Positions 6,486 through 17,500 of a stretch of 64,000 nucleotides of DNA are shown piece after piece. The DNA is taken from assembly GCA_000165345.1 (NCBI GenBank), contig CM000434.1:576001-640000 (forward strand). The letters run 5' to 3'. The notes under the pieces were generated by a model. The model saw nothing but the letters and a program-made list of their open reading frames with translations, searched no databases and was not told the origin of the DNA. Both the position numbers and the translations under genes were made by a program. Numbering within the stretch: the first letter of the stretch is position 1; every line of letters begins with the position of its first letter.

Positions 6486-6568
6486 GACAGTGTGGCCGAG
6501 TGGTCTAAGGCGTCAGACTTGAAATCTGATGTGGTCTCCACGCGCAGGTTCAAATCCTGCCACTGTCG
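6486..6568 (+). tRNA. tRNA-Ser (anticodon UGA), class II with long variable arm
   Basis: Acceptor stem GACAGTG/CACTGTC is a perfect 7 bp, followed by discriminator G. The anticodon stem TCAGA/TCTGA carries loop CTTGAAA, giving anticodon TGA with U33 and A37. The variable arm is GTGG-TCT-CCAC. The T-arm GCAGG-TTCAAAT-CCTGC has the TTCAAAT loop. A T6 run follows immediately (Pol III terminator). Confidence 0.9.
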
Positions 6569-6780
6569 CTTTTTTACAAAAATCCTTAATGTCAATTCCG
6601 AAATAATAAATTTATATTTTAGTTTTTTGGATTTAAAAAAAATTTATTGTAAATGTTAGTGAGCCATTCAAGTTTACTATCGCAATTATTCGATTTTTCA
6701 TTATTAATTTTTATCTGAGTTTTTTTTTCAGCATTTACTTAATACCGAAGACCAAAAATTTTTCTGAAAAAACTCAATAA

Positions 6781-12104: not shown

Positions 12105-13085
12105 ATGCAAGAGCTAGATTCATTGGAGAATACTAATATCGAAACAATTGAATACAGCGTTGACTTTCAAAACGAAGGGGTCTGCAAATTTTTATTTAAG
12201 CCAGATCACTATGCTCTTTTTTCCAAATTAAAGAGTCTTCTAGATAATGAGTGTTTCGATCTTGAAAATCTTGATATTTCAACACAAGTCATAGATTTGA
12301 ACCCACAACATTATACTGCGTGGTACTTCAGAAGAAAAATCATTCGCGAAAATTATGTTGAACATGAAAATAAAACGGAGTTCCTTAGAGAAGAATTAAG
12401 ATTCGTTAGAGGTATTTGTGAAAGAGCTCCAAAGTGTTATCAATCATGGTGGCATATGAGAGTTATTAGAGAATTACTTGGATTTGACATTGAAGAATTA
12501 AATTTCATAAGTAAGCAGCTGGAATTTGACGCAAAAAATATGTATGTGTGGAATCATAGGACTTGGTTTATTAGGAAATACAATTCTGTTGAAAATGATT
12601 TACTTATTAGTGAGTTGGATTTTATCTCAAAGTTGATTTCTGAGGATTGCAGAAACAATAGTGCCTGGTGTTACAGGCATTTTATTTTCACTAATTTAAA
12701 AAAAATGAATGCATTAAAAGAGTCTGATCTACTTGAGGAGGTAGATTACATAGTTAATTGGCTGATGTTTGCTCCACACAATGATTCAATATGGAACTAT
12801 ATAATTTCATTCTTTAGCAAAATAATGGTTAATGGAAATGTTAACAAAGAAACCTTAATTAAGAATTTGAGTCTTGAAAATGCGCCTAAGAGTTTTATAG
12901 ATGCAATTGATGAAATTTATACTAATCATTATGATAGTTGCCATCAGGTTGTGTATATTAAGGCTTGTATGGAATATGAAAAAGGTGATACTGATTTTGC
13001 TTTAAAAGCTTTCAAGCTTCTGCAATCAGTGGATCCAATAAGAAAATTCTACTGGAAATGGAGGGCAGATAATTTAAAAACTTGA
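12105..13085 (+). CDS. Protein prenyltransferase alpha subunit (FTase/GGTase-I alpha, RAM2/FNTA-like)
   Basis: 326-aa ORF with five tandem PFTA repeats built around W..RR/W..R motifs: TAWYFRRKII, QSWWHMRVI, YVWNHRTWFI, SAWCYRHFIF, SIWNYIISF. Confidence 0.8.
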   Translation: MQELDSLENTNIETIEYSVDFQNEGVCKFLFKPDHYALFSKLKSLLDNECFDLENLDISTQVIDLNPQHYTAWYFRRKIIRENYVEHENKTEFLREELRFVRGICERAPKCYQSWWHMRVIRELLGFDIEELNFISKQLEFDAKNMYVWNHRTWFIRKYNSVENDLLISELDFISKLISEDCRNNSAWCYRHFIFTNLKKMNALKESDLLEEVDYIVNWLMFAPHNDSIWNYIISFFSKIMVNGNVNKETLIKNLSLENAPKSFIDAIDEIYTNHYDSCHQVVYIKACMEYEKGDTDFALKAFKLLQSVDPIRKFYWKWRADNLKT

Positions 13086-13431
13086 AGTGCATGTGTATAT
13101 TTAATAAATATTAATTAAATTCCTGTAATTTATTCCAAAATGCACTAAAATTAATTTCTAAACAACGTTTTTATCAGAAAAGTACAGGGATTCTTCCAAA
13201 TTGTTTATTTCATCAAAGTTTACAGTATTCTCAACGGTCTATAGGAATAATTATAAATATTATAAGGTAATCTTTCTTTTTTCAAACTCACCTCCGTCTT
13301 TCCTTTCAATCTAGCAATAGAAAAAACTCTTAACATTTGAAGGCAAAATCTAGATGATGTTAGGATTTGTTCAAATATATCAGTGGCCTAGAATGTTATT
13401 AGTGAATTAACTAACGCGTTAATATTTATAT

Positions 13432-13899
13432 TTAACTTACTATCTGGTTATTTCTTAAATCGGCAATTTTTTTTGTAGCAAAAAGTCTTCGAATATCACC
13501 ATTTAAGAATAATAATGAAAGGCAGGTCAATGCAACAACAAAGTCAAATACATTATTTACTTTGTTAAAAAATCTTTTTTTCATTAAGAATAGTTTAATT
13601 ATTACTTCAAATGTCAAGGTTAGTGTTATAATTGTTTCCAGGAAAATAGAAAATCTACTTCCTGATTGAGCCCTAAACAAGCCACTGAAAAGAACCAAGA
13701 TGTTTAATAAAAAAATTCCAAGGTAGAGATATTTTGAAAACTCAGAATAGTATAATCTTTTAACTATTGTAATAGCCCTTTCCTCACATGTTAAATTTGA
13801 AGCCCAAAATGAAAACCCTTGATCTCTGGAGCTTCCGTTAATTTCAAAGTTGTGAAAATCGGTACTAGTAAGTCCTCCAGGGTATCTATACATATCCAT
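13432..13899 (-). CDS. Hypothetical small membrane protein (2-3 predicted TM helices)
   Basis: 155-aa ORF with an ATG start. Hydrophobic segments LYLGIFLLNILVLFSGLF, IFLETIITLTLTFEVIIKLFLM and FDFVVALTCLSLLFL. No recognisable family. Confidence 0.35.
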   Translation of the reverse strand: MDMYRYPGGLTSTDFHNFEINGSSRDQGFSFWASNLTCEERAITIVKRLYYSEFSKYLYLGIFLLNILVLFSGLFRAQSGSRFSIFLETIITLTLTFEVIIKLFLMKKRFFNKVNNVFDFVVALTCLSLLFLNGDIRRLFATKKIADLRNNQIVS

Positions 13900-14099: not shown

Positions 14100-14957
14100 A
14101 TGCAACAGATACAATCAAAACTCTCAATTATCTCAAAATCTATTAATAGTAAATCTCTAAATTCATTTGAATTTAACAATAATTATAATAGTCAGAACCC
14201 TAAATTCCAGATTGTTGAAGAACAAAAATCAGGCAATAACAGTGAATTAGAATTTTTGATTGACGCATCTAAATTTTACAGCCTAATTTGTCCTAGTTTA
14301 TCAAGCCGTTTAATTTGCAAAGTTGCAAATTTAACATCCGAAATCAGTCAGACAAAATCATATAGTGATTATTTTTCAGGAAAAATTTGTCCAAAATGTT
14401 TTTCAGTATATTTAATAGGAATTAATTGTAAATTAGAGGTCAAGCCTATTAAAGGGATTATTAGGAAAAGACTGAAAAAGAAACTACTCAAGCTTAGCAA
14501 AATTAGTGGCCAGAATTTCCAAAATTATTCTTTTAAGAATATATTAATTTCATGTAAACTTTGCAAATTTAGTTTTAAGAAACCTTATTGGGAGAAAAAG
14601 ATTAAAAATACGAATAGACATGAACCACTAAATGATGCTCAAAATAATAAAAACAAAGTCGAAGACATTCTTAACTACTCTAATTTTATCTTAAGCAATG
14701 CTGATACAAGCATTCAAGATCAATGCCGTCAAAATAGTAATAAAAGTGGTAATTCACAAAATGGAAATCCGAACACTAATAAAAATCACAGATTCTTTAA
14801 TAAGACTCAAAAGGCGGGCTCAATGCTTCAAGAAAAAAAAAATTCTTATGTTGACATTACTAATTTAACTGAGTTAAATAAGGATATAAAGAGCGAGCAA
14901 AGCAGCCAATCTACACAGGGCAATAGTTTTTATGATATTTTATCCATGCTTGAATGA
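14100..14957 (+). CDS. Hypothetical protein with paired Cys motifs (possible zinc ribbon)
   Basis: 285-aa ORF. It carries CPKCFSVY...C(x12)CKLCKF-type Cys pairs, basic Lys-rich patches and an Asn-rich tail. A resemblance to Rpr2/Rpp21-type zinc ribbons is speculative. It ends only 14 nt before the MOD5 ATG. Confidence 0.4.
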   Translation: MQQIQSKLSIISKSINSKSLNSFEFNNNYNSQNPKFQIVEEQKSGNNSELEFLIDASKFYSLICPSLSSRLICKVANLTSEISQTKSYSDYFSGKICPKCFSVYLIGINCKLEVKPIKGIIRKRLKKKLLKLSKISGQNFQNYSFKNILISCKLCKFSFKKPYWEKKIKNTNRHEPLNDAQNNKNKVEDILNYSNFILSNADTSIQDQCRQNSNKSGNSQNGNPNTNKNHRFFNKTQKAGSMLQEKKNSYVDITNLTELNKDIKSEQSSQSTQGNSFYDILSMLE

Positions 14958-14971
14958 CATGACCTTTTGAA

Positions 14972-16376
14972 ATGTGTTTTATTTCATTGAATTCGTATAT
15001 TAAAGATGTCCCAGTTATTTTCATTTTTGGTACAACAGGTAGATTAACTTATTACATTCAATAAGGCTTAAATAACTTTTTTAAATCTTTGTTATTTCTA
15101 TAATGTGTAGCTTCTGGCAAAACTCGTTTATCTATAGATATCTGGAAATATCTTGACAAAAAAGTATGTTTATTCAATTCATATAGAAAACCATATTTTC
15201 TTTTTAGGGATTTAAATCAGAAATAATAAATTGCGACTCAATGCAACTATACAAAGGCTTTGATATTGGAACTGCTAAAGTATCCAAAGAAATTCGTAAT
15301 AGAATCCCTCATCACCTATTAGATGTTTTTGATATTGATGAAGATTGTACAGCCTCCAAATATATCAGTATAGCAGTACCAATAGTAAGTTGTGATTTAA
15401 AAGTAAATTCAGTGCATTTATATCACATATAGATCGATAGATTGATCAGCGAAAATGTTACTCCAATTATTGTTGGTGGCACTCACATGTACCTTAAAGC
15501 GTTGATTTGGAAGTCTATTATTGACTCAGAAACATGTAGTAGCGTAAATCCTTCAATTAAAGATGAAGAATACTCAAACTTCACAAACGAGGAGTTGCTT
15601 GAACAGCTTTCGAAGATTGACCCTGAAAGAGCATTGTCATTAAATATAAATGACCGACGAAAAATAATCAGAGGGATAGAGGTAAATTTTTATAAATATT
15701 TATTAATCACAGTTAAGTAGATTCATAGATTTATAACACAAACGGGTTAACATTTACAGAGTTAAAGAAAATTCATCCATACAAAGTTAGATACAACAAT
15801 AGTGTATTATTTTGGGTAAGAAATAACAATATAAGAGAATGCATAGATATAAGAATAAATGAAATGATTAATGTAAGTTGCAATTCAGCGTCATATTTAA
15901 ATTTGAACATTCTTCCATAGGATGGATTATTAAAAGAGGTTTTTTTACTTAAGGAGAGGTTATTAACTTGTAATAAATATATTGGTTTATTACAAGGAAT
16001 AGCCTACAAAGAATTCATAGATATTCTCGACAAAAAAACAAAAATAGAAGACATTTCCGAAGAAGAACTCAATATATGTATTGAAAATTTGCGTATAAAG
16101 ACGTTTCAATACAGTAAGAGACAAGAGAAATTCATTAAAAAACATATAATTAATCGCGGATTAAATGTAAATATATTAGAATTTGATGGTGAAGTATCAG
16201 ATAGTCAGAAATTGGAACTACTTGAATTTAATTTTCAAAGTACTTCAATTATTTATAAATACTTGTCTAAATTATTTAATTTAAAGAATAACTCTGAAAG
16301 CAAACAAGTTTATTCATCTTGGGAAAAGTCAGTGTTAACTCGCGCATTCATGATTCTGGATAAAAAATTAAGTTAA
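14972..16376 (+). CDS. MOD5: tRNA dimethylallyl (isopentenyl) transferase, MiaA/MOD5 family; 6 exons
   Basis: Exons are 14972..15038, 15111..15163, 15208..15384, 15433..15681, 15729..15872 and 15921..16376. Introns are 72, 44, 48, 47 and 48 nt. Their donors are GTAGAT, GTATGT, GTAAGT, GTAAAT and GTAAGT; all acceptors are TAG. The spliced protein reads [66 protein letters not shown]...RIPHHLLDV...[15 protein letters not shown]...IRGIEIYNTNGLTFTEL...PYKVRYNNSVLFW...LQGIAYKEF...FQYSKRQEKFIKK. Across those segments it matches the MiaA/Mod5 consensus: P-loop GTTASGKT, DSMQx[20 protein letters not shown], GY(K/R)E and AKRQ.TW. The ORF track shows only three fragments: 15241..15432, 15442..15720 and 16089..16376. 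Confidence 0.75.
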
Positions 16377-17500
16377 TATGGCGAAATACTCCTTGACAGA
16401 GAGCGTGAGGAGTCACTTTCTGGAGAAATTTCTCCATCACTAGGAGGATAGATTTTTGTATCCTCTTTAATATGTTTTTTGTGTTTTTCTGAACTTATTC
16501 TATTCAATTCAACTGTCGAATAAGGGTTAGATCTAGTGTTTATATGTTTGTTTCTCGGCCCAAAACTGTTATAGTCACTCTGCACAGTCGACTTATAATT
16601 ATTTCCGAGCTCTTCATATCTCGTTTGGTTATTTTCTCTTCTGGATGAATGATTACCATAATTATCACGGTAATCCATATGCTCCCTATTTCTCCTATCT
16701 CTATAATTGTTTGAATAGTAATAAGCACGGCCTTCACCGGAGTAGCTTTGTCTATGTGATTTATATCGGAAATCGCCTTTATGAGCTATATTTTCATGTC
16801 TGTAGTTGCTATCCCTATTGGGAGAATGCGCTTTGATCCATTCTTTTAAATCTTTTGCTTGCTTTCTAATTTTTAGGTAGCCAACATGAATTTTACCGTT
16901 AAAGTGATCATTTAACCTTTGGTCATTGTCAGTTTCTGAAAGAAATGCGGCACAAATTTCACATGGGTGAAGTTTTTGACGATACATTCCATTCTCAACA
17001 TCTTCCTTTGTAGCAGATATCTTCATTTTTTGTTGATTTAGTCTTGTTAAGTCTTCCATCCTCTTCAAAGAGCCATCTATATCGCCATTTGCACCTAAAT
17101 CATCAATCTCCTTCATAATTTCTTTAATCTCAAGATCTAATGCCCGTATATTTTCATCTTCAAGTTTTGAACTTCCTGAAAGCTCAGCACGAACACGGTT
17201 TCTTTCAATCTTTTTATTGCAATCATCTACCATTCCCTGAAATACTCTCAAACTATCTGTCTCATATTTAATTCGAGTATTTCCTTTCGATTCTCTTTCA
17301 CTTAAGTACTTTTCCCTTAAAACTTCCGAATGGATATTTTTACAAGGACCCATATACAGCTTTGTATTTTCAAATAATTCATGAGGACATAGTCCGCATA
17401 AGTAGAATTTACAGACATCATTATCATGAGGGTTTTTCTTCTCTATTGGAGCTTCAATCCCTCCCATCAAATCTTCAATCTGACGTCTGATTTCATCCAT
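16373..17500 (-). CDS. LUC7-like U1 snRNP-associated splicing factor
   Basis: 375-aa ORF. First zinc finger: VCKFYLCGLCPHELFENTKLYMGPCKNIHSE. Second zinc finger: CEICAAFLSETDNDQRLNDHFNGKIHVGYLKIR. A coiled-coil lies between them and the C-terminal tail is RD/RS/Y-rich, the LUC7 layout. Its TAA stop overlaps the TAA stop of MOD5 on the other strand at 16373-16376. Confidence 0.75.
   Translation of the reverse strand: MDEIRRQIEDLMGGIEAPIEKKNPHDNDVCKFYLCGLCPHELFENTKLYMGPCKNIHSEVLREKYLSERESKGNTRIKYETDSLRVFQGMVDDCNKKIERNRVRAELSGSSKLEDENIRALDLEIKEIMKEIDDLGANGDIDGSLKRMEDLTRLNQQKMKISATKEDVENGMYRQKLHPCEICAAFLSETDNDQRLNDHFNGKIHVGYLKIRKQAKDLKEWIKAHSPNRDSNYRHENIAHKGDFRYKSHRQSYSGEGRAYYYSNNYRDRRNREHMDYRDNYGNHSSRRENNQTRYEELGNNYKSTVQSDYNSFGPRNKHINTRSNPYSTVELNRISSEKHKKHIKEDTKIYPPSDGEISPESDSSRSLSRSISPY

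What the first reader, a model, noticed from the sequence alone, without database searches (positions are those of the whole stretch)
14972..16376. MOD5/MiaA tRNA isopentenyltransferase is a 6-exon gene with 44-72 nt introns that the ORF track splits into three fragments
The MiaA/Mod5 hallmark motifs are distributed over six exons: P-loop [36 protein letters not shown], LEIY-like GIEIY, PYKV..LFW, GIAYKEF, YSKRQEKF. Every junction has a GTAAGT, GTATGT, GTAAAT or GTAGAT donor and a YAG acceptor, and reading frame is conserved across each one. The ORF-track pieces 15442..15720 and 16089..16376 carry spurious tails or heads that are intron read-through. Five introns in one gene is unusual in a window where almost every other gene is one long ORF.
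Basis: partly seen in the sequence, partly recalled or inferred. Interest (0 to 1): 0.55.

Follow-up and report, generated by a model that had tools for sequence, protein, structure and literature searches.

The report
Six-exon Cryptosporidium tRNA isopentenyltransferase gene

Summary
It matches Pfam IPPT over profile positions 1-242 of 243 (E 1.4e-56) and NCBIfam miaA above its curated cut-off. The predicted fold resembles tRNA-bound MiaA and Mod5.

All five introns are GT...TAG and break the reading frame if retained. Their positions are conserved in C. hominis, C. ryanae and C. andersoni: exons 2, 3 and 5 are 53, 177 and 144 nt in every species, while intron lengths range from 44 to 160 nt. 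Substitutions between species fall mostly on third codon positions in every exon.

The 381-aa product is identical to a deposited C. parvum protein (QOY41137.1, CPATCC_002789) and 98% identical to the C. hominis model with the same five introns. So the gene structure is already known.

Two side points are of mild interest. The protein groups with eukaryote-type enzymes but lacks their C-terminal zinc finger. Several other deposited Cryptosporidium models of this gene are truncated or fused to the upstream Rpr2 gene, which ends only 14 nt before this start codon. Interest is low.

The parts
14972..15038 (+). Exon 1 (67 nt): ATG start and the first half of the P-loop (…VIFIFGTT plus the first base of Ala23)
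   Evidence: Only 14 nt downstream of the Rpr2 ORF stop. Mismatches to the chipmunk-genotype orthologue by codon position are 1/2/6.
15039..15110 (+). Intron 1 (72 nt, phase 1, GTAGAT…TAG); splits the P-loop codon for Ala23
   Evidence: Read-through hits a stop at codon 9. The GTAGAT donor is kept in C. hominis, chipmunk genotype and C. ryanae. There is a 1-nt indel in chipmunk.
15111..15163 (+). Exon 2 (53 nt): [18 protein letters not shown], the second half of the P-loop
   Evidence: It is 53 nt in C. parvum, C. hominis, C. ryanae and C. andersoni. Codon-position mismatches are 1/1/6.
15164..15207 (+). Intron 2 (44 nt, phase 0, GTATGT…TAG)
   Evidence: Its length is not a multiple of 3, so retention shifts the frame. 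The same position holds a 56-nt intron in C. andersoni and a 160-nt intron in C. ryanae.
15208..15384 (+). Exon 3 (177 nt): DSMQLY (catalytic Asp50), DIGTAK, PHH
   Evidence: Alone it matches IPPT profile 1-43, E 1.1e-12. It is 177 nt in all four species.
15385..15432 (+). Intron 3 (48 nt, phase 0, GTAAGT…TAG)
   Evidence: The in-frame stop is the acceptor TAG itself. Indels that are not multiples of 3 occur in C. hominis (+1) and chipmunk.
15433..15681 (+). Exon 4 (249 nt): [13 protein letters not shown] and most of the helical insertion domain
   Evidence: Alone it matches IPPT profile 49-129, E 7.2e-15.
15682..15728 (+). Intron 4 (47 nt, phase 0, GTAAAT…TAG)
   Evidence: Retention shifts the frame and reaches a stop at codon 13. 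It is the least conserved segment against chipmunk, 66% identity.
15729..15872 (+). Exon 5 (144 nt): IYNTNGLTF…PYKVRYNNSVLFW…INEMIN
   Evidence: It is 144 nt in all four species. It fills profile positions about 130-178 in the spliced match.
15873..15920 (+). Intron 5 (48 nt, phase 0, GTAAGT…TAG)
   Evidence: The in-frame stop is the acceptor TAG. The position is conserved, with 61 nt in C. andersoni and 63 nt in C. ryanae.
15921..16376 (+). Exon 6 (456 nt including stop TAA 16374-16376): GIAYKEF, YSKRQEKF, then a poorly conserved C-terminal tail with no Cys or His (no zinc finger)
   Evidence: Matches IPPT profile 179-242. The tail from about residue 320 to 381 has low pLDDT. The stop overlaps the stop of the convergent LUC7-like ORF at 16373-17500.

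Best explanation
Window 14972-16376 (+) is the Cryptosporidium parvum gene for tRNA dimethylallyltransferase (tRNA isopentenyltransferase, EC 2.5.1.75). It has six exons separated by five short spliceosomal GT-AG introns.

Splicing rebuilds a 381-aa enzyme. Intron 1 even splits the P-loop, with GTT in exon 1 and ASGKT in exon 2.

By homology the enzyme works as follows. It binds dimethylallyl diphosphate with the P-loop. It clamps the anticodon stem-loop of tRNAs carrying A36-A37-A38 between the core and a helical insertion domain. It flips A37 into a channel. Asp50 of the DSMQ motif (equivalent to Mod5 Asp46 and MiaA Asp42) activates N6, which attacks DMAPP to give i6A37.

Shown here: gene structure, family membership, motif and fold conservation, and genus-wide conservation of intron positions.

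Inferred: enzymatic activity; the substrate set (cytosolic tRNAs only, because Cryptosporidium has no organellar translation, which is my own knowledge); and dependence on scavenged DMAPP, because the parasite lacks isoprenoid precursor synthesis (PMC10496319).
For: In-frame 381-aa splice product.

Family: Pfam IPPT 192 bits, profile 1-242/243. TIGR00174 miaA equivalog 208 bits against a 148.65 cut-off. PDB sequence hits to MiaA and Mod5 at 1e-24 to 1e-35. The P-loop Thr22 aligns with E. coli Thr19. Asp50 aligns with E. coli Asp42 and the Asp of Mod5 DSMQ (role of Asp46 from PMC5699536).

Fold: AlphaFold model of the 98%-identical C. hominis orthologue, pLDDT 82.8 and pTM 0.81. It matches tRNA-bound E. 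coli MiaA 3foz (TM 0.83, rmsd 3.3) and yeast Mod5 3eph (TMq 0.71).

Known annotation: the exact sequence is deposited as C. parvum QOY41137.1 (CPATCC_002789) and WRK32856.1. The C. hominis UdeA01 model has the same five introns.

Introns: exons 2, 3 and 5 are 53, 177 and 144 nt in four species, while introns vary from 44 to 160 nt and keep GT-AG. Indels lie in introns and are not multiples of 3; exons 1-5 have none. Exon mismatches to the chipmunk genotype are 43/25/101 by codon position. Every intron stops or shifts the frame if retained. Four of the five junctions lie in ungapped, conserved columns of 51 non-Cryptosporidium homologues.

A candidate substrate, tRNA-Ser(UGA) with A36A37A38, lies at 6486-6569.
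Against: No transcript data could be examined directly, so RNA-seq support rests on the annotation authors' general statement.

Junction 2 lies in a 4-5 residue insertion (DKKGF) that is absent from all 51 non-Cryptosporidium homologues. The insertion and the 53-nt exon are conserved across the genus, and no other frame-preserving GT-AG pair is nearby (read from the sequence).

The eukaryotic C-terminal zinc finger, which contacts tRNA in Mod5, is missing, so tRNA binding may differ.

Enzymatic activity and i6A in Cryptosporidium tRNA were not shown here, and I found no paper on them.
Confidence: 0.95

Rival explanations
1. A different exon set is the real gene. Candidates are the deposited alternatives: a 319-aa model that uses another frame of exon 1 and skips exon 2, a 361-aa model without exon 1, or a 600-614-aa fusion with the upstream Rpr2 gene.
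For: All of these models exist in public records for C. hominis, C. tyzzeri, C. parvum Iowa II, C. meleagridis and the chipmunk genotype. Rpr2 ends only 14 nt before the ATG, on the same strand.
Against: The 319-aa models lose the P-loop (MFQLFSFLVQQ|GFKSE…). The P-loop positions G20, T22, G25 and K26 are at least 90% conserved in 55 homologues. Exon 2 has the same 53-nt length in four species and third-position-biased substitutions. The 361-aa model has no start codon and begins inside intron 1. Rpr2 and the transferase are in different frames, and Rpr2 is a complete separate ORF with its own stop in every species. The annotators themselves warn of false fusions of adjacent genes (PMC8744675).
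Confidence: 0.03
2. The three ORF fragments are the remains of a decaying pseudogene. The apparent introns are chance GT...AG pairs in AT-rich DNA.
For: GT and AG dinucleotides are frequent at 33% GC. The unspliced sequence has stops in every frame.
Against: Exon lengths and intron positions are conserved between intestinal and gastric Cryptosporidium species. Splice sites are conserved. Indels are confined to introns. The third-position substitution bias is 43/25/101. The product is a full-length, gap-free match to the family profile with all catalytic motifs intact.
Confidence: 0.01
3. The gene is a bacterial-type MiaA acquired by horizontal or endosymbiotic transfer, not a descendant of the eukaryotic Mod5/TRIT1 lineage.
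For: There is no C-terminal zinc finger (sequence; Pfam). Most of the best non-Cryptosporidium database hits are bacterial-like, at 32-37% identity. The best PDB sequence hits are Firmicutes MiaA.
Against: In an NJ tree of 52 sequences, Cryptosporidium groups with the two zinc-finger (eukaryote-type) proteins in 298 of 300 bootstraps. The GGTH motif is shared only with those two and with yeast Mod5, while 113 bacterial-like hits have GGTN, GGTG or GGSG. The stretch before the YSKRQ motif aligns to Mod5 with a 3-residue gap, but needs an 8-residue gap against bacterial MiaA. The gene has five old spliceosomal introns.

Caveats: only two eukaryote-type sequences, shared AT-rich composition, and a distance method.
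Confidence: 0.08

Closest known systems
C. parvum IOWA-ATCC CPATCC_002789 (QOY41137.1, 'tRNA dimethylallyltransferase'); C. hominis UdeA01 CUV06679.1
   Same: QOY41137.1 is identical in sequence over all 381 residues. The C. hominis model is 98% identical, with the same six exons and introns of 72, 44, 49, 47 and 48 nt.
   Different: Nothing of substance. The window is this gene.
Yeast Mod5 / human TRIT1 (eukaryotic tRNA isopentenyltransferases; PDB 3eph)
   Same: Shares the IPPT core, the P-loop, DSMQ with the catalytic Asp, the GGTH motif and the helical insertion domain. Sequence E-value is 8.5e-33, and the predicted fold gives TMq 0.71. Groups with zinc-finger eukaryote-type relatives.
   Different: It lacks the C-terminal zinc-finger domain that marks the eukaryotic enzymes (PMC5699536). 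Instead it has a roughly 60-residue Cys/His-free tail that is poorly conserved and predicted with low confidence. It has a 4-5 residue genus-specific insertion after the P-loop helix.
Bacterial MiaA (E. coli 2zm5/3foz, B. halodurans 2qgn/3exa; TIGR00174)
   Same: Same domain content, with no zinc finger, and a similar length for the catalytic part. It scores above the miaA equivalog cut-off. TM 0.83 to tRNA-bound MiaA.
   Different: Encoded by a nuclear gene with five spliceosomal introns. It has GGTH rather than GGTG or GGTN, and a Mod5-like extra stretch before the YSKRQ motif.

Membership tests
IPPT / MiaA tRNA dimethylallyltransferase (PF01715, TIGR00174) | Full-length match to the family profile above the curated cut-off | tested here: met
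   PF01715 scores 192.3 bits (cut-off 23.6), profile 1-242/243. TIGR00174 scores 208.4 bits (cut-off 148.65), profile 1-280/288.
IPPT / MiaA tRNA dimethylallyltransferase (PF01715, TIGR00174) | N-terminal P-loop GxTxxGK[ST] that binds the DMAPP pyrophosphate | tested here: met
   G20-T-T-A-S-G-K-T27, rebuilt across intron 1. G20, T22, G25 and K26 are at least 90% conserved in 55 homologues.
IPPT / MiaA tRNA dimethylallyltransferase (PF01715, TIGR00174) | Catalytic Asp in the DSMQ motif (Mod5 Asp46, MiaA Asp42) | tested here: met
   Asp50 aligns with the Asp of DSMQ/DSAL in Mod5 and E. coli MiaA. The role of Asp46 comes from PMC5699536.
IPPT / MiaA tRNA dimethylallyltransferase (PF01715, TIGR00174) | Two-domain fold: P-loop core plus a helical insertion domain that clamps the anticodon stem-loop | tested here: met
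   Predicted model pLDDT 82.8. Foldseek to 3foz gives TM 0.83 and rmsd 3.3; to 3eph, TMq 0.71. This is a prediction, made on the 98%-identical C. hominis orthologue.
IPPT / MiaA tRNA dimethylallyltransferase (PF01715, TIGR00174) | Forms i6A37 on tRNAs with A36-A37-A38 | not testable with these tools
   Only indirect evidence: tRNA-Ser(UGA) at 6486-6569 has the anticodon loop CUUGAAA, i.e. A36A37A38.
Eukaryotic Mod5/TRIT1 subfamily | C-terminal C2H2-type zinc-finger domain | tested here: not met
   No zinc-finger Pfam hit. Residues 305-381 contain no Cys or His. No room for a further 3' exon, because the stop overlaps the convergent LUC7-like ORF. Also absent in the C. andersoni and C. ryanae orthologues.
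Eukaryotic Mod5/TRIT1 subfamily | Groups with eukaryotic rather than bacterial sequences | tested here: inconclusive
   NJ gives 298/300 with two zinc-finger proteins, and the GGTH motif is shared with Mod5. However, only two eukaryote-type sequences of unknown organism were used, with a distance method, and composition bias is possible.
Spliceosomal GT-AG introns | GT donor and AG acceptor, with frame restored only by removal | tested here: met
   All five are GT…TAG. Retention gives a stop within 9-21 codons or a frameshift.
Spliceosomal GT-AG introns | Position conserved in orthologues while length and sequence drift | tested here: met
   Exon lengths 53, 177 and 144 nt are identical in four species. 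Introns range from 44 to 160 nt. Indels that are not multiples of 3 occur only in introns.
Spliceosomal GT-AG introns | Junctions seen in transcripts | not testable with these tools
   Literature only: the introns of the CpIA annotation, which contains this exact protein, are stated to be 100% supported by RNA-seq (PMC8744675).

The most novel reading that the evidence does not exclude
Rpr2/Rpp21 (an RNase P protein subunit) and the tRNA isopentenyltransferase both act in tRNA maturation. They lie 14-33 nt apart on the same strand in four of the five Cryptosporidium species examined; the fifth (chipmunk genotype) is annotated as a fusion of the two. They could be one co-transcribed unit: a dicistronic mRNA, or a transferase promoter embedded in the Rpr2 coding region. 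This would explain why automated annotations keep fusing them.

Separately, the enzyme may be a eukaryote-type isopentenyltransferase that lost its zinc finger. It would act only on cytosolic tRNAs, using DMAPP taken from the host.
Probability: 0.12. Interest if true: 0.4.

Novelty: already known. Interest (0 to 1): 0.1.

Why it matters
For the scan, it matters little. The finding is a correct reconstruction of a gene that curated Cryptosporidium annotations already contain.

Its practical value is as a check on annotation quality. Of the deposited models for this one gene, only some (C. parvum IOWA-ATCC, C. hominis UdeA01, one C. meleagridis model) carry all six exons. Others lack the P-loop exons, stop inside intron 4, or are fused to Rpr2. 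The C. ryanae record misses exons 1-2, although they are present in its DNA.

Biologically the enzyme is a small point of interest. The parasite cannot make DMAPP and has no organellar translation, yet it keeps a tRNA isopentenyltransferase, and one without the eukaryotic zinc finger.

Tried and rejected
- **Alternative splice sites at junction 2.** The junction sits in a genus-specific 4-5 residue insertion. Exon 2's 3' end has no other GT. The next downstream AG, 13 nt on, would break the frame (read). Rejected.
- **Intron-encoded RNA.** Intron 1 is unusually conserved: 100% to C. hominis and 91.5% to chipmunk. Rfam at gathering thresholds finds only a tRNA elsewhere in the window. In C. ryanae the intron is a 97-nt simple-repeat sequence. 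The excess conservation is within small-sample noise, so I dropped it.
- **Literature on a Cryptosporidium isopentenyltransferase.** No relevant paper found.
- **Exact mapping of the 614-aa chipmunk fusion protein onto its locus with GT-AG introns of at least 20 nt.** This failed. That fits a non-canonical or very short artificial junction in that model. Not pursued.
- **First NJ attempt with Biopython.** It timed out. I redid it with numpy.
- **Pseudogene and horizontal-transfer readings.** Considered and scored low; see the rival explanations.

Full report
**What is in the sequence.** The region 14972-16376 lies in a 33% GC window whose long ORFs are mostly uninterrupted. In this stretch the mechanical ORF list shows only short + strand pieces: 14972-15064, 15241-15432, 15442-15720 and 16089-16376.

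The exons are 14972-15038, 15111-15163, 15208-15384, 15433-15681, 15729-15872 and 15921-16376.

The five introns are 72, 44, 48, 47 and 48 nt. Their GC is 17-31%. The donors are GTAGAT, GTATGT, GTAAGT, GTAAAT and GTAAGT, and all acceptors are TAG. If retained, each intron either shifts the frame (introns 2 and 4) or brings an in-frame stop within 9-16 codons. For introns 3 and 5 that stop is the acceptor TAG itself.

**Is it more than chance?** Splice-like dinucleotides are cheap in AT-rich DNA, so the weight rests on homology and on comparison between species.

- The spliced protein matches Pfam IPPT (PF01715) over profile positions 1-242 of 243, at 192 bits and E 1.4e-56.
- It matches NCBIfam TIGR00174 miaA at 208 bits against a curated cut-off of 148.65.
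- Exons 3, 4 and 6 on their own hit collinear parts of the profile (1-43, 49-129, 179-242). Exon 5 fills the gap between them.
- In an alignment with 51 non-Cryptosporidium homologues, four of the five junctions fall in ungapped, conserved columns.
- Junction 2 falls in a 4-5 residue insertion (DKKGF) specific to Cryptosporidium.

**Comparative test of the introns.** I fetched the orthologous loci of C. hominis, the chipmunk genotype, C. ryanae and C. andersoni. Gene order is conserved: prenyltransferase alpha, a small minus-strand gene, Rpr2, IPPT, then LUC7 on the minus strand.

Exact mapping of the deposited proteins gives the same five introns in C. hominis, with lengths 72, 44, 49, 47 and 48 nt. 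It gives six exons in C. andersoni. The C. ryanae record starts at an internal Met, but exons 1 and 2 are present upstream in its DNA.

| Species | Exon lengths (nt) | Intron lengths (nt) |
|---|---|---|
| C. parvum and C. hominis | 67/53/177/249/144/456 | 72/44/48/47/48 (C. parvum); 72/44/49/47/48 (C. hominis) |
| C. ryanae | 70/53/177/249/144/… | 97/160/91/57/63 |
| C. andersoni | 37/53/177/237/144/375 | 56/56/72/73/61 |

Introns range from 44 to 160 nt and always keep GT…AG.

Between C. parvum and the chipmunk genotype, exons 1-5 have no indels. Introns 1 and 3 have indels that are not multiples of three. Exon mismatches fall 43/25/101 on codon positions 1/2/3, and each exon, including the tiny exons 1 and 2, shows the bias. 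This is the signature of real exons separated by real introns under purifying selection. It rules out a decaying pseudogene.

**Already known.** The exact 381-aa sequence is in public records as C. parvum QOY41137.1 (CPATCC_002789, 'tRNA dimethylallyltransferase') and WRK32856.1. The C. hominis UdeA01 protein CUV06679.1 is 98% identical. The window is therefore C. parvum or a near-identical isolate.

The authors of the IOWA-ATCC annotation state that its introns are 100% supported by RNA-seq (PMC8744675). The 2015 re-annotation reports introns in about 10.8% of genes, 2-10 exons per intron-bearing gene with a mean of 2.6, and a mean intron length of 99 bp at 22% GC (PMC4637869). A six-exon gene is thus in the upper tail but within the described range. 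Its 44-72 nt introns are shorter than average.

Other deposited models of the same gene are worse:

- The original Iowa II entry (361 aa, 'partial') lacks exon 1.
- The 319-aa models for C. hominis and C. tyzzeri skip exon 2 and so lose the P-loop.
- The 143-aa models read into intron 4.
- The 600- and 614-aa models fuse the gene to Rpr2.

**What it does and how.** The protein aligns with bacterial MiaA and yeast Mod5 structures at E 1e-24 to 1e-35.

- The P-loop G20-TTASGKT27 is rebuilt by removing intron 1, which lies inside the Ala23 codon.
- Thr22 aligns with E. coli Thr19.
- Asp50 of DSMQ aligns with E. coli Asp42 and the Mod5 residue known as Asp46. That residue is the base that activates N6 of A37 for attack on DMAPP (PMC5699536).

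An AlphaFold model of the 98%-identical C. hominis orthologue is confident from about residue 8 to 320 (mean pLDDT 82.8, pTM 0.81). It superposes on tRNA-bound E. coli MiaA (TM 0.83, rmsd 3.3) and on Mod5 (TMq 0.71).

The mechanism is therefore inferred to be the family's usual one. DMAPP binds at the P-loop, the insertion domain clamps the anticodon stem-loop, A37 flips into the channel, and a dimethylallyl group is transferred to give i6A37.

A candidate substrate lies in the same window: tRNA-Ser(UGA) at 6486-6569, with anticodon loop CUUGAAA, which is A36A37A38. Activity itself is not shown.

Cryptosporidium lacks the MEP pathway and is thought to scavenge isoprenoid precursors (PMC10496319). 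DMAPP for this enzyme would then come from outside the parasite. This is an inference.

**Which branch of the family.** Eukaryotic enzymes are distinguished by a C-terminal zinc finger (PMC5699536). Here there is none:

- There is no zinc-finger Pfam hit.
- Residues 305-381 contain no Cys or His.
- The stop codon overlaps the stop of the convergent LUC7-like gene, so no further exon can follow.

Several features still point to the eukaryotic lineage.

- The GGTH motif is shared only with yeast Mod5 and with the two zinc-finger proteins among the top 120 database hits. The 113 bacterial-like hits have GGTN, GGTG or GGSG.
- The stretch before the YSKRQ motif aligns to Mod5 with a 3-residue gap, but needs an 8-residue gap against bacterial MiaA.
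- An NJ tree groups Cryptosporidium with the two zinc-finger proteins in 298 of 300 bootstraps.

I read this as a eukaryote-type enzyme that lost the zinc finger. The taxon sampling is thin and composition bias is possible, so this part is provisional.

**Verdict.** The feature is an ordinary, already annotated gene. Interest is low.

Noticed in passing
window 14100-14971: The Rpr2/Rpp21 (RNase P subunit) ORF 14100-14957 ends only 14 nt before the isopentenyltransferase ATG, on the same strand but in a different frame. The spacing is 14 nt in C. hominis, 18 nt in C. ryanae and 33 nt in C. andersoni, against a genome mean intergenic length of about 550-590 bp. Both genes act on tRNA. The transferase promoter must lie inside Rpr2, or the two genes are co-transcribed. 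Two deposited models fuse them.
   Followed up: partly
window 16373-16376: The transferase stop (TAA 16374-16376) and the stop of the convergent LUC7-like ORF (16373-17500, minus strand; PF03194 E 4.9e-61) share the tetranucleotide TTAA. The two coding regions therefore overlap by 4 nt, and their 3' UTRs must overlap completely.
   Followed up: partly
window 6486-6569: A tRNA-Ser(UGA) gene with anticodon loop CUUGAAA (A36-A37-A38), the sequence required for isopentenylation. It is a plausible substrate of the enzyme encoded 8.4 kb downstream.
   Followed up: partly
L002:2588-2967 (C. ryanae VHLK02000071.1): The deposited C. ryanae protein (292 aa) starts at an internal Met and lacks the P-loop. 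Exon 1 (2588-2657) and exon 2 (2755-2807) are present upstream, with GTAGAT and GTAGGT donors. The deposited extra 3' intron (GTGGAG…CAG) looks doubtful. C. xiaoi has the same truncated 292-aa form.
   Followed up: partly
window 15039-15110: Intron 1 is more conserved than its flanking exons: 72/72 identical to C. hominis, and 65/71 to the chipmunk genotype. Rfam finds no family there, and the C. ryanae intron at this position is unrelated simple repeat. This is probably sampling noise.
   Followed up: partly
window 15150-15225 (residues 37-45): A Cryptosporidium-specific insertion of 4-5 residues (DKK|GF) sits exactly at the exon 2/exon 3 junction. It is absent from all 51 other homologues aligned but conserved in length across the genus. 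It may be a trace of ancient splice-site sliding.
   Followed up: no
window 12105-13899: Two genes upstream is a protein prenyltransferase alpha-subunit ORF (12105-13085; PPTA in the orthologous loci), another user of isoprenoid diphosphates. Between it and Rpr2 lies a small minus-strand gene (ORF 13432-13899). In C. hominis it is annotated as 209 aa over 736 nt, so it too contains an intron.
   Followed up: no
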